Shown here piece by piece: positions 1,950 through 32,775 of a DNA stretch of 38,544 bases (the stretch's first letter is position 1; each line of letters begins with the position of its first letter). Made by a program: the position numbers and the translations under genes. The DNA is from a virus (taxonomy: Duplodnaviria > Heunggongvirae > Uroviricota > Caudoviricetes). The stretch lies in IMG/VR virus record IMGVR_UViG_2698536428_000019; one strand, written 5' to 3'. The notes under the pieces were generated by a model that worked only from the letters and a program-made list of their open reading frames with translations, was not told the DNA's origin and did no database searches.

Positions 1950-2311
1950 TATCGACTGAACCCGACAACCGGATAGCGGGGGCTTTCACCCCCGCTGCGG
2001 TTTCTTACTGTTTACACTGCAAGAACGCCGCAAATTCTGACCACATGATGTTAAGTCTGAACTCACACGGCGAACGGTGTATCATCCAGATGGCCAACAA
2101 CATGGTTAAGCATAAAATGCTCACGATGATCGTTTTTTGCAGCATAGCGCTTGACTCCTTTTACAGGGAGGCGCTAACCTTCCACTTGTCTAGGGTAGGA
2201 ATGGTTAGGGCCTCGGGTTAAACAATATGTTTGACTCGGGGCCTTTCCACATCCGGCCTTCAGGTTTTCCTTCCAGCCGTCAGCCGAAAGGCACCCGCGC
2301 GTAATGTACTG
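1950..2311. repeat. direct repeat, copy 2 of 2; abuts the prophage ogr end
   Basis: Same unit as 1478..1835; its right edge encodes the last codons of the ogr-like ORF. Confidence 0.85.
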
Positions 2312-26484: not shown

Positions 26485-26510
26485 GGCGGAGACTGATCTC
26501 CGCCTTTTTT
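26485..26510 (+). terminator. intrinsic terminator/attenuator 15 nt upstream of the membrane-protein gene ATG
   Basis: GGCGGAGA-ctga-TCTCCGCC followed by TTTTTT. Confidence 0.6.
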
Positions 26511-26524
26511 ATTGGTAAAGAAAT

Positions 26525-27028
26525 ATGGCTATGGACTCAGTAACGATACAAATCATTAGCAATATGATAGTCCTGTTTGGTGTCATTGTTGCTATCTGTA
26601 CAATTATCTATAACGTTCGTACGGCAAAAAAAACACAAACCGCTAATTTTTTATTTGAAAGTCGCCAGGATAAGGAATACCTGGAATCATTACATCTCCT
26701 CAGGAGAATTCATCGCTCAGGGAAATCGTTTCGTGCTTATGTTTTTCCTTGTGAAGGCGGGGCTATTACGGAAGAGGAGATGACCGAACGTCGCAAGTTT
26801 CAGTACATTCTTAACTTTTACGAGAGAGTTGCAGTTAGTATCCGTGAAGGTATTTATGATGAAAGGATGATCAAACGAACGTCCTTTACAACGATTATTA
26901 CAACTTATGATATTGCAGAACCCCTGATTAAGGCTATCAGAGAAGATACTCAATCAAAAACAGCGTACCAGGAGTTTGAATGGCTGGTAAAACGATGGAA
27001 AGCTCGTCCTCTTGATAGGGATGTGTAG
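26525..27028 (+). CDS. membrane-anchored hypothetical protein (167 aa) in the old/tin position; candidate defence or exclusion gene
   Basis: N-terminal TM helix (IQIISNMIVLFGVIVAICTIIY) then a roughly 135-aa charged domain; visibly AT-rich; same orientation as P2 old/tin; weak RBS. Confidence 0.65.
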   Translation: MAMDSVTIQIISNMIVLFGVIVAICTIIYNVRTAKKTQTANFLFESRQDKEYLESLHLLRRIHRSGKSFRAYVFPCEGGAITEEEMTERRKFQYILNFYERVAVSIREGIYDERMIKRTSFTTIITTYDIAEPLIKAIREDTQSKTAYQEFEWLVKRWKARPLDRDV

Positions 27029-27979: not shown

Positions 27980-28384
27980 TTACCTGCGTGATTGCCTGCT
28001 GGCGGCCGAATGCACATAGCGGACAATTGCCGCTTTTCGGTTAACGACGGCCAGCGTTCTTGCCAGTTCTTCGTTGAGTTTTCTGGTCTGTTTTTCGTGG
28101 TATGCCTGCATGATTTTTCCTACGGGAGTCAGTGGTTCAGGCTCTGATATGGCGCGACGAGGGCGCACGGCAACGATGAATGCGCTTCTGTCGGTGTTGA
28201 TTCTTGCAGTCAGGATGTCGGTCATAACGGTGTCTGTGCTGCGATCGGGACTGGCGATCGTGATTTCCAGTTCGTCGCCTGGCTGCGGTCGAACACTGAC
28301 GCCGCTCAGTGTCAGTGCCGGAATGCGTGCGTTCATGATGGTGCTGAAATCATGGCGCTGGAGTACGCAATGGAATCGTGTCAT
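27980..28384 (-). CDS. hypothetical protein (134 aa)
   Basis: ATGA overlap with the stop of replication gene A; same strand as the early operon. Confidence 0.5.
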   Translation of the reverse strand: MTRFHCVLQRHDFSTIMNARIPALTLSGVSVRPQPGDELEITIASPDRSTDTVMTDILTARINTDRSAFIVAVRPRRAISEPEPLTPVGKIMQAYHEKQTRKLNEELARTLAVVNRKAAIVRYVHSAASRQSRR

Positions 28385-30894
28385 GGGTTAACCTCCGGTT
28401 GATCTGCTGCCACCAGGCTTCGTGATTTTTCATCCCAGTGCACAATCCGCCCGTCAGGCAGGCGAACGCGTGCACCTCTGTGTACGGAAAGTGCTGCGCC
28501 ACTGTGTAGCTCCTCGCCCGTCGTGCTCAGTGCCGACTTGATTACGGTGGTGGTGACGTCAGTCAGCGGCAATGCTGTACGCACATGTATGACGTCATCG
28601 GGCGTGGTGGGGCCGCCGGTTTTCACGGTTTTTGTGTCAGATGGCGCATCTTTCAGCTGCCTGGTGAGTTGTTTTCTCTCTGTGGGGGTCAGTGACCTTA
28701 ACCATTCGCTCAAATCACCTTCCGGGATGGTCAGTTTTTGTTCTTTCCTGGTTTCCGGTGGTGGGGTTTTACCCTCTCCGGTGTCTGTTTTTTCATCATG
28801 GGGACAGTTATTGCCACGAGTCCAAGGTGCGGCGAAGCCGCCCCCAACGTCAAAATCCTCGTCCGTGCTGTTGTCGGCTTTCGCTTCTTTTCTGACCAGT
28901 TTCCACTCGTCCGGATGGGTGCAGATGGTGTAGCGCTCGCCGAGCGACGGGGCACAAATTCCGTAGATGCGCTGCGGGAATTCGCCGTAGTCGTTGGCCT
29001 CATCTGCGGTTTCGTATGCGGTGCGGACCAGGTACGCGTTGCGGGGAATGAGCACGCCACCCTGGCGGGTGATGTAGGTGGCAAAACACCCCACGTCAGC
29101 AGCGGCCAGAATGGCGTCAATGTCGTCATGATCCAGGCGCTTCGGTGATGCCGGGTTGCGCTCCATTTGTCCGGCAAGGCGGCGTAGTTCACGCCACACC
29201 TGGCGGGGCGGGATGCCGAAGAACTGGAACTGACGGATGCGATGGAGACTCGCCCAGGCAATGGCGTTTTCCACGGTTTCCGCCATGGTTTTTCCCGATT
29301 CTTTATCGGCGTAAGGTTTGCCGGTTTTCGGGTCATTGTCGTGAAAGGTGCTGGCGTCCAGGTTCTTGCCAATATAGGTTGCGATGTAGCTTGCCGGTGT
29401 GCCTTTTGCCGGGTCGATTTTTTCGCACTTGAAGCGCGGAGAAATATCATTCCCCAGTTCTGCGCGATCTGATTTGATTGCTGCATCACGCATGATTTCA
29501 ATGATGCGTTCTTCATTGTCCGGGGAAGTGAATACCAGCATGTGCCAGTGTGGTGTGCCGTCATGGTGTGGCTCAACGGTGCGCACCCCGTACCAGCTCA
29601 GACCTTCTTTGTTGAGTTTTTTTCTTGCAGCTGCAAAGACGTCGTAAACCAGATAATCACTGGCATCGCGCACGGTGGCACCGTTGTATTTCGGGTTCAG
29701 GCTGCCGTCCTCGTTCACGCTGTGAAAGCGGGAAGGGCAGGTCACTGTTACGAAGAACGCGGAGTCACCACGCGATTCGGCGACCTGTTCCATCCCTCTG
29801 ACGCAGGCCATCATCTCGTTGCGGCGGTTGCGCGGATTCCCCAGCCCTGACCAGTACACGTCCTCCAGACTCAGGCGTTCACCGTCTTCGTTTTCAATGT
29901 CCCAGCTTTTGAGAAAATCACGGGTGCGCTGGCGTTTCTCCCGGAATTTCTGGAGTGACTCATGGCTGATGTAGGGGGATGCCTTGCGCGATACTCTTCC
30001 GGCGGCACGCAGTAATTCCTCCCGCCAGAGATCAGCGAGGTGGCGCAGCTGGTTGTTCCACCAGGTGGCGCAGGTGATGCGCATGACTGCACCCGGTACC
30101 CGTTCAGGGTCTGGTGCCGTGCGGCGGTCACGTCTGATCTCGAGTGACGGCCAGTATGGTGGGGTCACGCCCAGTTTTAACGCCATGCGCGCCAGCTGCT
30201 GGTAAGTCAGCAACCAGGTAAACAGGTTATCGTCGCCTTTTCCTGTCCGCTCAGTAACTTCATCACATATGCGTTCCAGTTCGGTGGAAAATGCCGCCGC
30301 TGTTAGTGTGGCAAGGCGCTGAATTTGATCACGGTTGAGTTGTGGCAACATGAGTAATTCATCAAGGCGATGGCGTGCTGCGGTGGCTCTGAATGCTGTC
30401 GTGGCGAAGCATTCATTCACCTGTTCGATGCGTTTCAGGCGTGTGCGCAGTCCACGGCGAACGAAGTTATCGGCCACGTGAGTGTTGTTGTTTTTCACGC
30501 CTTCATTGCGGGCGCTTTGTTGTTTGCGGTTTAAACGCGCCAGATCACGAATGAGCGCGTTACCAAGAAACGAGGGCAGGGTGCGAAGTTCTGCCATGGC
30601 TTCCGATACCAGCGTTGGCGGATTTTCTCGTTTGTGTCTCGCCAGTTTTTCCAGTCTGATCCGGCGCTCTTCGTCGTGGTGAAGATGCGAATTAATTCGC
30701 TTGCCTTCGTCTGTGTTTGTCAGGAAGGAGACGGTTTCTTCATCCAGTCTGGCATCAATGCGAATGTCTTCGTTGATGTAGCTCTGAATGGCCTGGCGTA
30801 ATGCGGTTGGTTGCGCTCTGCCGAACGTTTCAGGATCGATAACCGGTAGCGGGGCGTTCCACGGGTACGCCAGTTGTGCGTTATGGTCGCTCAT
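28381..30894 (-). CDS. replication initiation endonuclease (P2 gene A family, rolling-circle Rep)
   Basis: 837 aa; only large early protein, with size, position and general character of P2 gpA; start at the ATG overlapping the upstream stop (the ORF-track start is a GTG). Confidence 0.85.
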   Translation of the reverse strand: MSDHNAQLAYPWNAPLPVIDPETFGRAQPTALRQAIQSYINEDIRIDARLDEETVSFLTNTDEGKRINSHLHHDEERRIRLEKLARHKRENPPTLVSEAMAELRTLPSFLGNALIRDLARLNRKQQSARNEGVKNNNTHVADNFVRRGLRTRLKRIEQVNECFATTAFRATAARHRLDELLMLPQLNRDQIQRLATLTAAAFSTELERICDEVTERTGKGDDNLFTWLLTYQQLARMALKLGVTPPYWPSLEIRRDRRTAPDPERVPGAVMRITCATWWNNQLRHLADLWREELLRAAGRVSRKASPYISHESLQKFREKRQRTRDFLKSWDIENEDGERLSLEDVYWSGLGNPRNRRNEMMACVRGMEQVAESRGDSAFFVTVTCPSRFHSVNEDGSLNPKYNGATVRDASDYLVYDVFAAARKKLNKEGLSWYGVRTVEPHHDGTPHWHMLVFTSPDNEERIIEIMRDAAIKSDRAELGNDISPRFKCEKIDPAKGTPASYIATYIGKNLDASTFHDNDPKTGKPYADKESGKTMAETVENAIAWASLHRIRQFQFFGIPPRQVWRELRRLAGQMERNPASPKRLDHDDIDAILAAADVGCFATYITRQGGVLIPRNAYLVRTAYETADEANDYGEFPQRIYGICAPSLGERYTICTHPDEWKLVRKEAKADNSTDEDFDVGGGFAAPWTRGNNCPHDEKTDTGEGKTPPPETRKEQKLTIPEGDLSEWLRSLTPTERKQLTRQLKDAPSDTKTVKTGGPTTPDDVIHVRTALPLTDVTTTVIKSALSTTGEELHSGAALSVHRGARVRLPDGRIVHWDEKSRSLVAADQPEVNP

Positions 30895-31307
30895 GCGTCG
30901 CACTCCCCGGCAGTTGCCACCTGAAACGCCGCGCGGTACAGCACGAGAAGGCGCTGGTATTCACCGATAAAGTCTTCTGCGGTGTATATGCCTTTCACGG
31001 CCACGCTGTGGGTTGTCATTTCCAGAACCAGTGCCATCTCTGACGATGACCAGCTGATGGCGGTACTGTCGGTGCCGTTGATGTGAAATAAACCAAAGCC
31101 ATCACCGTCACCTTTCACGTCCACGCGGTAACGACCGTCAACGGTGAAGGAGAAATCCCCGGATGTGGTGATGCTGCGGGCAGCCTGTTTACAGGCGCGG
31201 CGGTAATAGTCGTGCCAGTCGTTCAGGCGGGAAGCCAGCCGGGGATCCACTGCCCACATCCAGTTAAAAAAATCCTGAATATCTGAAAGTCCCTTAACGC
31301 TCTTCAT
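30891..31307 (-). CDS. hypothetical early protein (138 aa)
   Basis: ORF translationally coupled to gene A. Confidence 0.55.
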   Translation of the reverse strand: MKSVKGLSDIQDFFNWMWAVDPRLASRLNDWHDYYRRACKQAARSITTSGDFSFTVDGRYRVDVKGDGDGFGLFHINGTDSTAISWSSSEMALVLEMTTHSVAVKGIYTAEDFIGEYQRLLVLYRAAFQVATAGECDA

Positions 31308-31375
31308 GAGAACCTCCGGTAACAGATGTGCGGAAGCCTCCCGCGTACGGGTGCGGGATGGCTTCAGGATGTTGT

Positions 31376-31603
31376 TTAGTGGTGGTGTTGCTGGTTGATA
31401 AGGTCCTGCAGCTCCGCGAGATCATCCGCCAGGTAGCTGAAAACAGCGGCACAGTAACGGTTTGACAGAGCGTGAGTGCGCTCATGCAGCATGTTGATAT
31501 GCATGATTTGCGCGACGCGTGTTGCGCGGAAAAGTCTGCGGTTGATTTCAGTCTGGATGTGACGACGCTCAGCGCGGGCGCGCTGTTGCTTGCGGTTTGC
31601 CAT
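31376..31603 (-). CDS. hypothetical small basic protein (75 aa)
   Basis: Arg-rich N-terminus; position like the small orfs between B and A in P2-like phages. Confidence 0.45.
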   Translation of the reverse strand: MANRKQQRARAERRHIQTEINRRLFRATRVAQIMHINMLHERTHALSNRYCAAVFSYLADDLAELQDLINQQHHH

Positions 31604-31986
31604 GGTGTTGCCTCTTCGTTTGTGAATTTTGAAAACTCACCAACCAGAGGTGGAAAACTCAGGGTGGCGAGACGTACAGGGTTTCCACAACCGGCAAACG
31701 AAGAAACCGGCCCGACCGAAGTCGGCCCTGTACGCCCCGCCATAATTCTGACGCGAAAAAGACGTGGCGATACAGTACGCACAAAAAAACCGCTGGCGCG
31801 GCTGTGCGCTTCGTTTGTCAGCGGGGTGGAAATCCCGGCACCCGTTTTATGAGGTGCAGCGGAAATGTAACCCGACACGACGAGCGCTGGCAAGCGGTTT
31901 TTGTGTTGCGTGCTGATGTGGTTAGAATGTGGCGAATTAATATCACCTGGCAACTGGTGATTGTCTGCATACGCGGGGTGTTTCTG

Positions 31987-32451
31987 ATGAGTGATAAGCT
32001 CCCTTCTGATTACGACATTCTTTTTGACCTGTGGTACAGCTACTGGCTTGAACGTATTACATGTGTGTTTCACCGACGCGTTTCTGCTGCTCTGCGAATC
32101 AGCGCCTTTCTGGTTGGTGTTGCGGCGTTTGTCCTGTGTGATTTTGTTGTGTTGGTACTCTTCAGTGTGGTTCTGTTTCTGCTCTGGCAGTGCATGGCTG
32201 CCAGTTTTGAACGCAGGGCTGAAAAGGCTGAATGGCAGACAGTCAGTTACCAGCGCCTTATCAGTCAGCGCCATGTGATTAGTAAGGAATGCATGATTGC
32301 GCGCCTCTCCTTTGTTGAGGAAAGTGACAGTCCCATCATGGAGTGCATGATTAATCTTGCCTGGAATAAAGCCTGTGAGGCGGTTGGCAGCTCTTCGCGC
32401 AATCATGTTTCGATCTCCGGTCGGTTACTCAGTCGCCTGTGCGGCTTTTGA
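31987..32451 (+). CDS. hypothetical membrane protein encoded antisense to the early operon
   Basis: Hydrophobic hairpin ISAFLVGVAAFVLCDFVVLVLFSVVLFLLW; fills an otherwise gene-free ~0.8-kb gap; start and extent uncertain; 3' end overlaps the convergent gene at 32425..32775. Confidence 0.35.
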   Translation: MSDKLPSDYDILFDLWYSYWLERITCVFHRRVSAALRISAFLVGVAAFVLCDFVVLVLFSVVLFLLWQCMAASFERRAEKAEWQTVSYQRLISQRHVISKECMIARLSFVEESDSPIMECMINLAWNKACEAVGSSSRNHVSISGRLLSRLCGF

Positions 32452-32775
32452 CTGGCGAAGCAGCTGGGTGATGCTTTCACCGGCTGCCCTGTTTTCCGGG
32501 AATGACACCGGCATGTTCAGCTTGCGTGCCATTGCGTACTCTGCCCGTGCGCCAGCTGACTCCGTCCAGCCTTCCAGTAAGTAAATGGCATCGGCACACA
32601 TGAGCATCGAAATACAAATGCTCATGTACTGCTGCTGGCTTAGTCCGTCCGGCAGTATGGCAGGGTTGAGTGCGGTGTATCCGGCTGACTTAAGCTTCAT
32701 CGCCGCCATGGAAAACGCCGTTCTGTTGTGGTCTTTGTATCCGGTCATGGGACCGGCGATATAAATCACTGCCAT
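32425..32775 (-). CDS. DUF4406-like protein
   Basis: MAVIYIAGPMTGYKDHN... N-terminal P-loop-like motif typical of the DUF4406 family as recalled. Confidence 0.55.
   Translation of the reverse strand: MAVIYIAGPMTGYKDHNRTAFSMAAMKLKSAGYTALNPAILPDGLSQQQYMSICISMLMCADAIYLLEGWTESAGARAEYAMARKLNMPVSFPENRAAGESITQLLRQSKAAQATE

What the first reader, a model, noticed from the sequence alone, without database searches (positions are those of the whole stretch)
31604..32451. Antisense membrane-protein ORF inside the early operon
An ~0.8-kb stretch of the otherwise tightly packed minus-strand early operon has no convincing minus-strand gene; the only long minus ORF is low-complexity and overlaps real genes. 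The plus strand encodes a roughly 154-aa protein with a strong hydrophobic hairpin, preceded by a perfect inverted repeat (ATCACC-N8-GGTGAT, about 31955..31974) and a possible promoter. A minus-strand terminator-like hairpin with T-run lies at about 31690..31720. An oppositely oriented membrane protein embedded in early genes is the typical placement of exclusion or moron genes.
Basis: partly seen in the sequence, partly recalled or inferred. Interest (0 to 1): 0.45.

Follow-up and report, generated by a model that had tools for sequence, protein, structure and literature searches.

The report
Antisense membrane gene beside RNA immunity module
The gap in this P2-like prophage's early operon holds a real opposite-strand gene for a small two-helix membrane protein of unknown function, and next to it two known small-RNA genes that switch off an anti-repressor gene; the odd part is that the membrane gene avoids codons that would put stops in its reverse strand.

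Summary

**Plus strand.** The ORF at 31987..32451 (154 aa) is a genuine gene. Against a diverged E. coli allele its dN/dS is 0.20. It has a 2-TM hairpin and matches phage family phrog_6315 (E=6.5e-54). It resembles SLATT domains only weakly, below cutoff. Relatives sit alone, usually opposite to the early genes, in P2-like and lambdoid prophages, so it is a moron-type cargo gene. A defence or exclusion role is inferred, not shown.

**Minus strand.** The interval is not empty. It carries an IsrK-like RNA (31857..31783) and a C4 antisense RNA (31747..31660). Two C4 segments pair with IsrK and with the leader and Shine-Dalgarno of the downstream derepression gene. These pairs covary across 44 related loci. 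This is the known P1/P4-type RNA immunity design.

**The 370-aa minus ORF.** It shows no protein-level constraint, yet it is kept open. Antisense-embedded family genes avoid TTA/CTA/TCA (p about 2e-6). This suggests a translated "bridge" across the insert.

**Verdict.** New members of known kinds, with one unexplained twist.

The parts
31987..32451 (+). 154-aa gene for a 2-TM inner-membrane protein (phrog_6315 family, weakly SLATT-like). Accessory 'moron'-type gene, convergent with the DUF4406 gene and overlapping it by 27 nt.
   Evidence: ORF. dN/dS 0.20 overall and 0.14 in the diverged core; mismatches by codon position 25/16/49; no stops. Hydropathy. phrog_6315 E=6.5e-54. AF2 model pLDDT 92 with a long helical hairpin, 8-50 and 54-93. 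Annotated as hypothetical protein by PGAP.
31901..31928 (+). Putative sigma-70 promoter of the plus gene: -35 TTGTGT (31901..31906), 16-nt spacer, -10 TAGAAT (31923..31928). It lies back to back with the isrK promoter.
   Evidence: Read from the sequence. The position is conserved, and the -10 is TATAAT in the P0010-type allele. Not listed by the consensus scan. No transcript data.
31942..31961 (+). Perfect inverted repeat ATCACC-N8-GGTGAT in the predicted 5' UTR. Probably an mRNA 5' stem-loop or an operator.
   Evidence: Position and chance count: 13 in the window against about 9 expected. Predicted to form a hairpin in the 55-nt UTR fold (-12.3 kcal/mol for the whole fold). The diverged allele has a different 7-bp hairpin at the same relative place.
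31864..31893 (-). Promoter of the IsrK-like RNA: TTGCCA-18 nt-TACATT.
   Evidence: Consensus scan, 9 of 12 matches. Conserved in all related loci.
31783..31857 (-). IsrK-like small RNA (the seqA equivalent of phage P4) with an intrinsic terminator. It carries target copies a1 (31832..31826) and b1 (31817..31806) that are complementary to C4.
   Evidence: Rfam RF01394, 64.1 bits against a gathering score of 50. Terminator. Covariation with C4: 91.5% of cells paired and 184 double-change cells.
31660..31747 (-). C4-type antisense RNA (the CI RNA equivalent of P4). Recognition segments are b' (31706..31695, UUUCUUCGUUUG) and a' (31688..31682, GUGGAAA).
   Evidence: Rfam RF01695, 82.1 bits against a gathering score of 45, full length. 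Covariation with both target sets.
31611..31656 (-). Leader of the derepression gene with C4 targets a2 (31656..31650) and b2 (31622..31611). b2 covers the Shine-Dalgarno GAAGAGG, 8 nt before the ATG at 31603.
   Evidence: 93.6% of cells paired, 10 of 19 pairs with compensatory changes, slid controls 40-52%. Duplex energy with the phage's own leader -13.5 kcal/mol, against -6.5 with leaders of phages carrying a different b'.
31376..31603 (-). 75-aa derepression protein gene (Pfam PF25738; phrog_3688). It is the regulated target of the C4 module.
   Evidence: Pfam E=2.4e-7, above cutoff. phrog_3688 E=2.9e-42. dN/dS 0.28.
31294..32406 (-). 370-aa early-operon-sense 'shadow' ORF. It runs from 18 nt after the DUF4406 stop to 11 nt past the start of the next early gene. 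Its protein sequence is unconstrained, but the frame is kept stop-free. Possible translated bridge.
   Evidence: ORF. dN/dS 1.19 and 2.67. Depletion of TTA/CTA/TCA in antisense-embedded family genes. The frame is open in nearly all of 59 unique related sequences. GGAG lies 8 nt before its ATG.

Best explanation
The interval holds two unrelated units that meet at a pair of back-to-back promoters.

(1) **Plus strand.** This is an independently transcribed accessory gene. It encodes a 154-aa inner-membrane protein with both ends in the cytoplasm: a long helical hairpin whose middle crosses the membrane twice, followed by a small conserved helical cytoplasmic domain. It belongs to phage family phrog_6315 and looks distantly SLATT-like. 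Most likely it is made in the lysogen and acts at the membrane as a phage-exclusion or abortive-infection effector. This function is inferred, not shown.

(2) **Minus strand.** This is an IsrK-C4 RNA immunity module of the P4/P1 type.
- A constitutive promoter makes the IsrK-like RNA.
- Read-through transcripts yield the C4 RNA.
- The a' and b' segments of C4 pair with the leader and Shine-Dalgarno of the 75-aa derepression (anti-repressor-type) gene and block its translation.
- The IsrK-like RNA carries the same two target sequences and can compete for C4.
- By polarity this may also limit the downstream replication gene A (inferred).

The 370-aa minus ORF is not a conserved protein.
For: **Plus gene**
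- dN/dS 0.20 (0.14 in the core), a third-position excess of 49 of 90 mismatches, and no indels or stops across a strongly diverged allele.
- 2-TM hydropathy.
- All 20 aligned family members match phrog_6315.
- A family of 150-175-aa proteins was found by profile search.
- AF2 model pLDDT 92, pTM 0.83.
- Collinear sub-threshold hits to NCBIfam SLATT_4 (7 of 20 members, best E=1.8e-4), SLATT_1 (4 of 20) and PADLOC CBASS '2TM effector' (E=1.3e-4).
- Singleton, opposite-strand placement in early or immunity regions of Yersinia, Salmonella, Escherichia and Citrobacter prophages, plus one chromosomal site next to a Schlafen-like helicase/DUF2726 gene.
- The slot is variable.

**RNA module**
- Both Rfam hits are above gathering score and full length.
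- Promoter and terminator are present.
- Of the 19 C4-target pairs, 93.6% (leader) and 91.5% (IsrK) of cells are paired. There are 182 and 184 compensatory cells, 0 of 500 shuffles reach these values, and slid controls give 30-52%.
- There are 6 a' types and 12 b' types in 20 combinations.
- Cognate duplexes are about 7 kcal/mol more stable than non-cognate ones.
- The IsrK/seqA-C4/CI-antirepressor design is described for P4, P1/P7 and Gifsy-1 (PMC3632133, PMC4825925).
Against: - There are no expression data. The plus-strand promoter is weak by consensus and no terminator follows the gene.
- The window protein itself hits no SLATT model, and the family hits are far below the curated cutoffs (about 21 bits against 55). 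They fall mainly on the hydrophobic hairpin, where spurious matches are common.
- Fold searches returned only generic helical hairpins.
- No partner or sensor gene accompanies it, unlike SLATT effectors in known systems.
- No member of the family has a tested phenotype that I could find.
- For the RNA module, processing, trans action and polarity on gene A are carried over from P1/P4 and were not tested here.
- The stop-free minus frame shows that something besides the plus protein constrains this DNA.
Confidence: 0.6

Rival explanations
1. Both strands are decoded. Besides the plus gene, the early-operon-sense ORF (32406..31294) is translated as a sequence-unconstrained 'bridge'. It keeps ribosomes on the early transcript across the antisense insert and the RNA module. 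This would prevent Rho-dependent polarity on the downstream replication genes, and/or let transcripts from the early promoter read through the IsrK terminator. This complements the main explanation rather than replacing it.
For: - Family genes embedded antisense in P2-like early operons carry 4 TTA/CTA/TCA among 164 Leu/Ser codons (2.4%), against 13.6% in neighbouring ORFs (p=2e-6).
- A-ending codons of other amino acids are used equally, 28.2% against 28.3%.
- Synonymous resampling gives a combined p=1.5e-7.
- Lambdoid and chromosomal relatives carry 8-23 such codons.
- The ORF starts 18 nt after the upstream stop, with GGAG 8 nt before its ATG, and ends at the next gene's start.
- The same geometry is seen in L018 and in Yersinia phage YenM_42.18, where it is the annotated CDS.
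- The frame through IsrK-C4-derepression is open in nearly all of 59 unique sequences, while the other two frames carry 27-28 distinct stop positions.
- From my own knowledge: P2 operons are polarity-sensitive, and P4 Psu suppresses that polarity.
Against: - There is no protein-level constraint (dN/dS 1.19 and 2.67).
- Ribosomes would have to run through a terminator, through a structured RNA, and through the derepression gene in another frame.
- The 186-like Salmonella and Escherichia contexts keep 2-3 stops, so the pattern is not universal.
- The five lineages are few, and codon usage was estimated from short flanks.
- No translation data exist.
Confidence: 0.35
2. The plus-strand protein is real but is not an anti-phage factor. 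It might serve the phage's own cycle (for example timing of lysis, a Kil-like host shut-off, or DNA entry), or it might be a lysogenic-conversion membrane protein that benefits the host in another way.
For: - There is no defence-family hit for the window protein itself.
- It is a singleton without a sensor partner.
- The conserved residues lie in the cytoplasmic helices rather than in the membrane segments, which fits a protein-binding role.
- The known P2 defence hotspot is next to cos, not here (PMC9122126).
Against: - It is dispensable for the phage type: it is absent from 64 of 80 related loci, including phage P88.
- It is oriented against the lytic operon, which is the usual mark of lysogen-expressed cargo.
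- The weak SLATT and CBASS-2TM similarities recur across family members.
- One relative lies in a chromosomal neighbourhood with defence-type genes.
Confidence: 0.3
3. The true gene is the 370-aa minus-strand protein, and the plus ORF is its shadow.
For: - The ORF is far longer than chance allows.
- It fits the operon spacing.
- Its translation across IsrK-C4 matches PHROGs named 'transcriptional regulator' (phrog_821, 995 and 6928; E about 1e-15 to 1e-17).
- The Yersinia record annotates the equivalent ORF.
Against: - dN/dS is 1.19 and 2.67 in that frame, against 0.20 and 0.28 in the plus gene and the derepression gene.
- Substitutions fall on its first codon position.
- There is no Pfam hit.
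- The PHROG matches cover only the stretch encoding the two RNAs, whose variation follows base pairing rather than codons.
- The plus protein has distant homologues in contexts where the reverse frame is full of stops.
Confidence: 0.04

Closest known systems
IsrK-C4 (seqA-CI RNA) immunity modules: phage P4 immunity, P1/P7 immI (c4-icd-ant), and Gifsy-1 isrK-orf45(STnc1160)-anrP
   Same: - The two RNA families occur in the same order.
- The antisense RNA has two recognition segments, each matched by one target copy upstream (in IsrK/seqA) and one downstream.
- The downstream target covers the ribosome-binding site of the first gene, which is an anti-repressor-type protein.
- Specificity varies by compensatory changes, as between P1 and P7.
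- An ORF overlaps the C4-like RNA, as orf45 does in Gifsy-1.
(PMC3632133, PMC4825925)
   Different: - Here the module sits inside the early operon of a P2-like (P88/Xuanwuvirus-type) helper-class phage, just upstream of replication gene A.
- It controls a 75-aa PF25738 'derepression' protein rather than Ant, AnrP or the P4 replication genes.
- Many specificity types (6 a' types and 12 b' types) circulate among E. coli prophages.
- Processing, trans-immunity and termination effects were not tested.
SLATT (SMODS and SLOG-associating 2TM effector) domains and CBASS '2TM' effectors
   Same: - Size, and a helical hairpin with two membrane passes flanked by cytoplasmic helices.
- Repeated collinear weak matches of family members to SLATT_4, SLATT_1 and PADLOC 2TM effector models.
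- Residence in mobile elements.
   Different: - No match reaches a curated cutoff, and the window protein itself has none.
- There is no adjacent nucleotide cyclase, SLOG, TIR or reverse transcriptase partner.
- The conserved motifs (F13, Y17, E22, R31, Q84, Y88, D114-S115, A125, A129) are the family's own.
Prophage morons and superinfection-exclusion membrane proteins (for example lambda RexB and SieB, P22 SieA/B, HK97 gp15, T4 Imm; P2 Old/Tin/Fun as P2 cargo). Comparison from my own knowledge.
   Same: - A small membrane protein gene with its own promoter, opposite to or independent of the lytic operon.
- Patchy distribution among otherwise similar phages.
- Location in or near the immunity or early region.
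   Different: - No sequence or fold similarity to any of them was found.
- No terminator.
- It lies inside the P2-like early operon rather than at the cos-proximal P2 defence hotspot (PMC9122126).
- No phenotype is known.
Antiparallel overlapping ('shadow') ORFs
   Same: A long ORF in the exact reverse-complement frame of a real gene. This is the frame where shadows are commonest, because its stops correspond to the sense codons TTA, CTA and TCA.
   Different: - Here the depletion of those three codons is specific. Other A-ending codons are unaffected and the gene is not codon-optimised.
- It depends on context: it is seen only where the gene lies antisense in a P2-like operon.
- The ORF is fitted between the flanking operon genes.

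Membership tests
Rfam RF01695 C4 antisense RNA | Covariance-model score at or above the family's gathering score, over the full model | tested here: met
   82.1 bits against 45, model positions 1-87 of 87, E=8.2e-15. The same hit is found in related loci L012 and L018.
Rfam RF01695 C4 antisense RNA | Exposed segments complementary to target sites on the same transcript, upstream and downstream, with the downstream site at the ribosome-binding site | tested here: met
   a'/b' pair with a2/b2 (b2 covers the SD) and with a1/b1. 93.6% and 91.5% of cells are paired, with 10 and 11 pairs showing compensatory change.
Rfam RF01695 C4 antisense RNA | Matured from a longer transcript by RNase P, and acts in trans as an immunity factor | not testable with these tools
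   Needs Northern blots or 5'/3'-end mapping, and superinfection tests.
Rfam RF01394 isrK | Covariance-model score at or above gathering, with its own promoter and intrinsic terminator | tested here: met
   64.1 bits against 50, model positions 1-77 of 77. Promoter TTGCCA-18-TACATT and a terminator with a U7 run.
P4/P1-type IsrK-C4 immunity system | The regulated downstream gene is an anti-repressor or lytic-switch function | tested here: inconclusive
   The downstream gene matches Pfam PF25738 'Derepression protein family' above cutoff (30.8 bits against 27). The activity of this protein and its target repressor were not tested. tblastn found relatives only in P88-like phages.
PHROG phrog_6315 (phage protein family, function unknown) | Full-length profile match | tested here: met
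   E=6.5e-54, residues 6-154 on profile positions 2-149 of 152. All 20 aligned family members match.
SLATT domain (Pfam SLATT_1-6, NCBIfam NF033632 and NF033634) | Profile match at or above the curated cutoff | tested here: not met
   The window protein has no SLATT hit at E<=0.1. The best family member scores 21.4 bits against a cutoff of 55 for SLATT_4. SLATT_4 is hit by 7 of 20 members and SLATT_1 by 4 of 20, all sub-threshold.
SLATT domain | Two transmembrane helices forming a hairpin within a helical domain | tested here: met
   Hydropathy over residues 34-74. AF2 helices 8-50 and 54-93, pLDDT 92.
SLATT domain | Genomic association with a nucleotide-signalling or reverse-transcriptase partner (SMODS, SLOG, TIR, RT) | tested here: not met
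   The gene is a singleton in all nine contexts examined, with no such neighbour.
Moron (autonomous accessory transcription unit in a prophage) | Present in some but not all otherwise similar phages, at a fixed slot | tested here: met
   16 of 80 related loci carry a family member. The slot upstream of isrK holds at least 8 alternative contents. It is absent from P88.
Moron (autonomous accessory transcription unit in a prophage) | Own promoter and terminator, and expression in the lysogen | tested here: inconclusive
   A plausible promoter with a conserved -10 position. No convincing plus-strand terminator after 32451. No transcript data.
Superinfection-exclusion or abortive-infection proteins | Reduces plating of other phages when expressed | not testable with these tools
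   Needs plating assays. No homology to characterised Sie or Abi proteins was found in Pfam or in fold searches, and only weak sub-threshold PADLOC '2TM effector' matches for a few family members.

The most novel reading that the evidence does not exclude
Opposite-strand cargo genes inserted into polarity-sensitive P2-like early operons are shaped by selection so that their reverse complement stays stop-free. The early transcript is then translated across the insert, and across the IsrK-C4 RNA genes, by a bridge ORF whose sequence is unconstrained. The only job of that ORF would be to keep ribosomes behind RNA polymerase. This would protect the downstream replication genes from Rho, and would let ribosomes override the IsrK terminator only on transcripts that start at the lytic promoter. 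It would be a general design rule for how phages tolerate antisense morons, and a promoter-dependent switch built on an RNA immunity module.
Probability: 0.3. Interest if true: 0.7.

Novelty: new member of a known kind. Interest (0 to 1): 0.45.

Why it matters
- It corrects the annotation of a region present in about a quarter of complete E. coli genomes. The 'Ash/transcriptional regulator'-type ORF calls over it are translations of two RNA genes.
- It shows that P88-like P2-family prophages carry many interchangeable specificity types of a P4/P1-style RNA immunity switch placed just before their replication gene. This bears on helper-satellite and prophage-prophage competition.
- It gives phrog_6315, an uncharacterised phage membrane-protein family, a confident structural model, a topology and a consistent genomic niche, which makes it a reasonable candidate for defence screens.
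- The context-dependent loss of antisense stop codons is a cheap, testable signal that translation of 'non-genes' can matter for operon integrity.

Tried and rejected
**Searches that gave nothing useful for the plus protein**
- Pfam: only sub-threshold hits to membrane families (Mlo, DUF6239, DUF6136).
- Foldseek against BFVD: nothing with E<=0.001. A few SLATT-named proteins appear among chance-level hits.
- PDB sequence search with the family profile: only respiratory-chain membrane helices at E about 0.4.
- The afdb50 library was unavailable.
- The search for related loci with the diverse family alignment failed for lack of a conserved stretch.

**Ideas tested and dropped**
- A functional link between the plus gene and IsrK/C4. 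Family members in Yersinia, Salmonella and Citrobacter prophages have no IsrK or C4 nearby.
- The inverted repeat as a significant operator. It is no more frequent than chance.
- P4 epsilon as a detectable relative of the 75-aa protein. tblastn found only P88-like phages and one Citrobacter phage.

**Literature**
- Searches found no study of this family and no report of antisense stop-codon avoidance in morons.
- My first frame-anchoring script for the shadow ORF was off by one base and was redone.
Full report
**Setting.** The window is a P2-like prophage of Escherichia coli, of the P88/Xuanwuvirus type.
- The stretch 31300..32500 is 99.6% identical to a chromosomal segment of strain JNEC-KY177.
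- Part of it (31388..31923) is 85-88% identical to phage P88 and its relatives.
- The early operon runs on the minus strand: DUF4406 gene (32775..32425), the interval in question, a 75-aa gene (31603..31376), a 138-aa gene (31307..30891), and the replication endonuclease gpA (30903..28381).

**Checking the observation.**
- The interval has no minus-strand gene that behaves as protein-coding. The 370-aa ORF (32406..31294) has no Pfam hit and overlaps the 75-aa gene.
- The plus strand has an ORF from GTG 31804.
- Hydropathy shows one 41-residue hydrophobic block (residues 34-74) broken by Cys51-Asp52, which is a two-helix hairpin.
- The inverted repeat ATCACC-N8-GGTGAT exists, but at 31942..31961. 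Such repeats occur 13 times in the window against about 9 expected, so it is not evidence on its own.
- The 'terminator-like hairpin' at about 31690..31720 is flagged by the simple scan (31719..31707). It lies inside a C4 RNA gene.

**The plus ORF is a real gene.**
- I compared the window with the allele in E. coli EC2 (L003). The two flanks are nearly identical and the central 270 nt are strongly diverged, without any indel.
- Of 90 mismatches, 25, 16 and 49 fall on codon positions 1, 2 and 3.
- dN/dS is 0.20 overall and 0.14 in the core (dS 1.64). All other frames give 0.43-1.97, and all but the exact reverse frame carry several stops; that frame has a single stop per allele. Its dN/dS is 1.19.
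- PGAP annotates the gene as a hypothetical protein.

**What the protein is.**
- Word-indexed search found only E. coli sequences.
- An exhaustive profile search found a family of proteins of about 150-175 aa at 21-38% identity.
- All 20 aligned members match phrog_6315, function unknown. The window protein matches at E=6.5e-54.
- With the family alignment, AlphaFold gives a confident model (pLDDT 92, pTM 0.83). It has two long helices (8-50 and 54-93) whose middle parts are the membrane segments, followed by three short helices.
- Arg30-Arg31 before the first membrane segment and Arg76-Arg77-Lys80 after the second place both termini in the cytoplasm. This is inferred from the positive-inside rule.
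- The near-invariant residues (F13, Y17, E22, R31, A81, Q84, Y88, L91, D114, S115, A125, A129) lie outside the membrane segments.
- No Pfam family reaches its cutoff.
- Several members give collinear but weak hits: NCBIfam SLATT_4 (7 of 20, best E=1.8e-4, about 21 bits against a cutoff of 55), SLATT_1 (4 of 20), Pfam SLATT_3 and SLATT_4, and PADLOC CBASS '2TM effector' models (best E=1.3e-4).
- I treat a SLATT relationship as a lead, not a membership. The window protein itself has no such hit, and the matches lie largely on hydrophobic helices.
- Structure searches returned only generic helical hairpins, and no solved relative exists.

**Where the family lives.**
- Among 80 viral contigs that share the neighbouring derepression gene, 16 carry a family member on the opposite strand:
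  - six carry the window type or the EC2 type;
  - seven carry a type only 38% identical (P0010), at exactly the same slot and with the same geometry;
  - three carry a third type, further upstream.
- The other loci have at least eight different contents in that slot. P88 has a co-oriented gene there.
- More distant members occur in several contexts:
  - antisense inside the early operon of Yersinia phage vB_YenM_42.18;
  - antisense inside the early operon of 186-like Salmonella and Escherichia prophages, between fil and DUF5347;
  - next to the CI-type repressor of lambdoid prophages;
  - once in a chromosomal neighbourhood with a Schlafen-like helicase/DUF2726 gene and an McrA-type DNA-binding protein.
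- None of these other contexts has IsrK or C4 nearby, so the gene is an independent cargo unit.
- Upstream, TTGTGT-16-TAGAAT (31901..31928) is aligned with TTGTGT-16-TATAAT in the 38%-identical allele. Both alleles have a hairpin, different in sequence, just after the predicted start.
- Expression and function remain untested. My preferred reading is a lysogen-expressed membrane effector that excludes or aborts other phages. It rests on placement, topology and the weak SLATT and 2TM-effector signals.

**The minus strand is not empty.**
- Rfam finds an IsrK-like RNA at 31857..31783 (64 bits, gathering score 50) and a C4 antisense RNA at 31747..31660 (82 bits, gathering score 45). Both are full length.
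- IsrK has a promoter (TTGCCA-18-TACATT, 31893..31864) and an intrinsic terminator (31803..31783).
- The next gene (31603..31376) matches Pfam PF25738 'Derepression protein family' above cutoff, and phrog_3688.
- Aligning the window with P88 showed three short motifs changing together.
- I then aligned 44 distinct versions of the region and counted pairs.
  - The C4 loop b' (UUUCUUCGUUUG in the window) pairs with b2 (CAAACGAAGAGG), which contains the Shine-Dalgarno sequence 8 nt before the ATG.
  - The C4 segment a' (GUGGAAA) pairs with a2 (UUUCCAC), 28 nt further upstream.
  - The same two targets, a1 and b1, are present in IsrK.
- For C4 against the leader, 93.6% of 817 cells are standard pairs. 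Ten of 19 pairs show compensatory change (182 cells). No shuffle in 500 reaches this, and sliding the partner by 1-3 columns gives 40-52%.
- For C4 against IsrK the figures are 91.5%, 11 pairs and 184 cells, with slid controls of 30-52%.
- There are 6 a' types and 12 b' types in 20 combinations.
- Predicted b'-leader duplexes average -13.5 kcal/mol with the phage's own leader and -6.5 with leaders of phages that have a different b'.
- This is the architecture described for P4 (seqA, CI RNA, seqC), P1/P7 (c4, with a1b1 and a2b2) and Gifsy-1 (IsrK, STnc1160/orf45, AnrP). Barquist et al. call it the 'IsrK-C4 immunity system' (PMC3632133), and Hershko-Shalev et al. describe the Gifsy-1 case (PMC4825925).
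- Mechanism as I read it:
  - Shown here: the complementarity and the covariation.
  - Inferred by analogy: C4 blocks translation of the derepression gene, IsrK competes for C4, and the specificity types define hetero-immune classes.
  - A further inference: because the module lies just upstream of gpA, translational block plus polarity could also hold down replication.

**The long minus ORF.**
- It is not a conserved protein. dN/dS is 1.19 opposite the plus gene and 2.67 across the derepression gene, where the derepression frame gives 0.28.
- Its translation across IsrK-C4 matches PHROGs labelled 'transcriptional regulator' (phrog_821, 995, 6928). I read these as ORF calls made over the same RNA genes in other phages.
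- Yet the frame is open far beyond chance, and in a patterned way.
  - It starts 18 nt after the DUF4406 stop, with GGAG 8 nt before its ATG, and stops 11 nt after the start of the next gene.
  - In nearly all of 59 unique related sequences the same frame is open from just upstream of IsrK to a conserved stop beside the next gene's start. It has only singleton stops, whereas the other two frames carry 27-28 distinct stop positions.
  - Family genes lying antisense in P2-like early operons almost lack the three sense codons whose complements are stops. The counts are window 1, P0010 type 1, P0011 type 0, Yersinia 0 (expected 9.4) and Salmonella 2.
  - Pooled, 4 of 164 Leu/Ser codons are TTA/CTA/TCA, against 375 of 2753 in neighbouring ORFs (p=2e-6). 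TCA is 0 of 75 Ser codons.
  - A-ending codons of other amino acids are used identically (28.2% against 28.3%), and the genes are not codon-optimised.
  - Synonymous resampling gives a combined p of 1.5e-7.
  - Relatives in lambdoid prophages and in the chromosome carry 8-23 such codons.
  - In L018 and in the Yersinia phage the reverse ORF fits exactly between the flanking early genes. In the Yersinia record it is the annotated CDS.
- The simplest reading is that translation of this frame matters while its product does not. It could be a bridge that keeps the early transcript translated across the insert.
- The reading fits what I know of these phages: P2 operons are sensitive to Rho polarity, and lambdoid early transcription is antiterminated. 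It is a hypothesis with no direct support here, and the 186-like cases are only partly open.

**Verdict.**
- It missed that most of the 'gap' is a known RNA immunity module, and it misread a C4 hairpin as a terminator.
- Both units are new members of known kinds: phrog_6315, and Rfam isrK and C4.
- The one feature I cannot file under existing knowledge is the selection-maintained open frame on the operon strand.

Noticed in passing
window 32406..31294 (-); also L018 887..1522 (+) and L084 3809..4474 (-): The reverse-complement frame of the antisense-embedded membrane-protein gene is kept free of stops. TTA/CTA/TCA codons are depleted about 5.6-fold (p=2e-6), although the frame shows no protein-level constraint. 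The resulting ORF fits between the flanking early genes. Lambdoid and chromosomal relatives of the gene do not show this.
   Followed up: partly
window 31860..31294 (-), and 59 unique related sequences from L001 and L004-L083: One reading frame through IsrK, C4, the leader and the whole derepression gene (which uses a different frame) is open in almost every related phage. It ends at a conserved stop beside the next gene's start. It recalls orf45, which overlaps the C4-like STnc1160 in Gifsy-1.
   Followed up: partly
window 31783..31857 and 31660..31747, translated in the minus frame: Translation of the two RNA genes matches PHROGs named 'transcriptional regulator/repressor' (phrog_821, 995, 6928, 3960; E down to 3e-17). 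Some phage records annotate 'Ash family' or 'antirepressor' CDSs over this DNA. These protein families probably include translated RNA genes.
   Followed up: partly
window 32060..32270 (+), compared with L003: The two E. coli alleles of the membrane-protein gene are mosaic. The ends are nearly identical and the centre is saturated (dS 1.64), covering the membrane hairpin. This suggests recombination between old alleles rather than uniform divergence.
   Followed up: no
A5 alignment of 44 loci (window 31576..31860 and equivalents): The a and b recognition segments of C4 assort independently: 6 a' types and 12 b' types occur in 20 combinations. Each is matched by its own targets in IsrK and in the leader. 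This implies many RNA-defined immunity classes among E. coli P88-like prophages.
   Followed up: yes
L012 and relatives, about 2114..2180 (reverse strand); window 31935..31986: Both diverged alleles of the membrane-protein gene have a stable hairpin right after the predicted transcription start, but with unrelated sequences (a 6-bp stem in the window, a 7-bp stem in the P0010 type). The P0010 type also has a consensus TATAAT and a GGAGG ribosome-binding site.
   Followed up: partly
window 32425..32775 (-): The upstream early gene is a DUF4406 protein (E=7e-34). It has PHROG matches to nucleoside 2-deoxyribosyltransferase-like proteins. Its last 27 nt overlap the end of the plus-strand gene.
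   Followed up: no
window 26501..27000: A stretch of markedly low G+C (0.386, against about 0.54 for the window) lies downstream of the replication gene. It could be another cargo or hotspot region.
   Followed up: no
L095 6011..7687 and L096 3238..4914: In the 186-like Escherichia prophages that carry a family member, a 558-aa SNIPE/T5orf172-domain gene sits between the CI repressor gene and the integrase gene. This looks like a second accessory, defence-type insertion.
   Followed up: no
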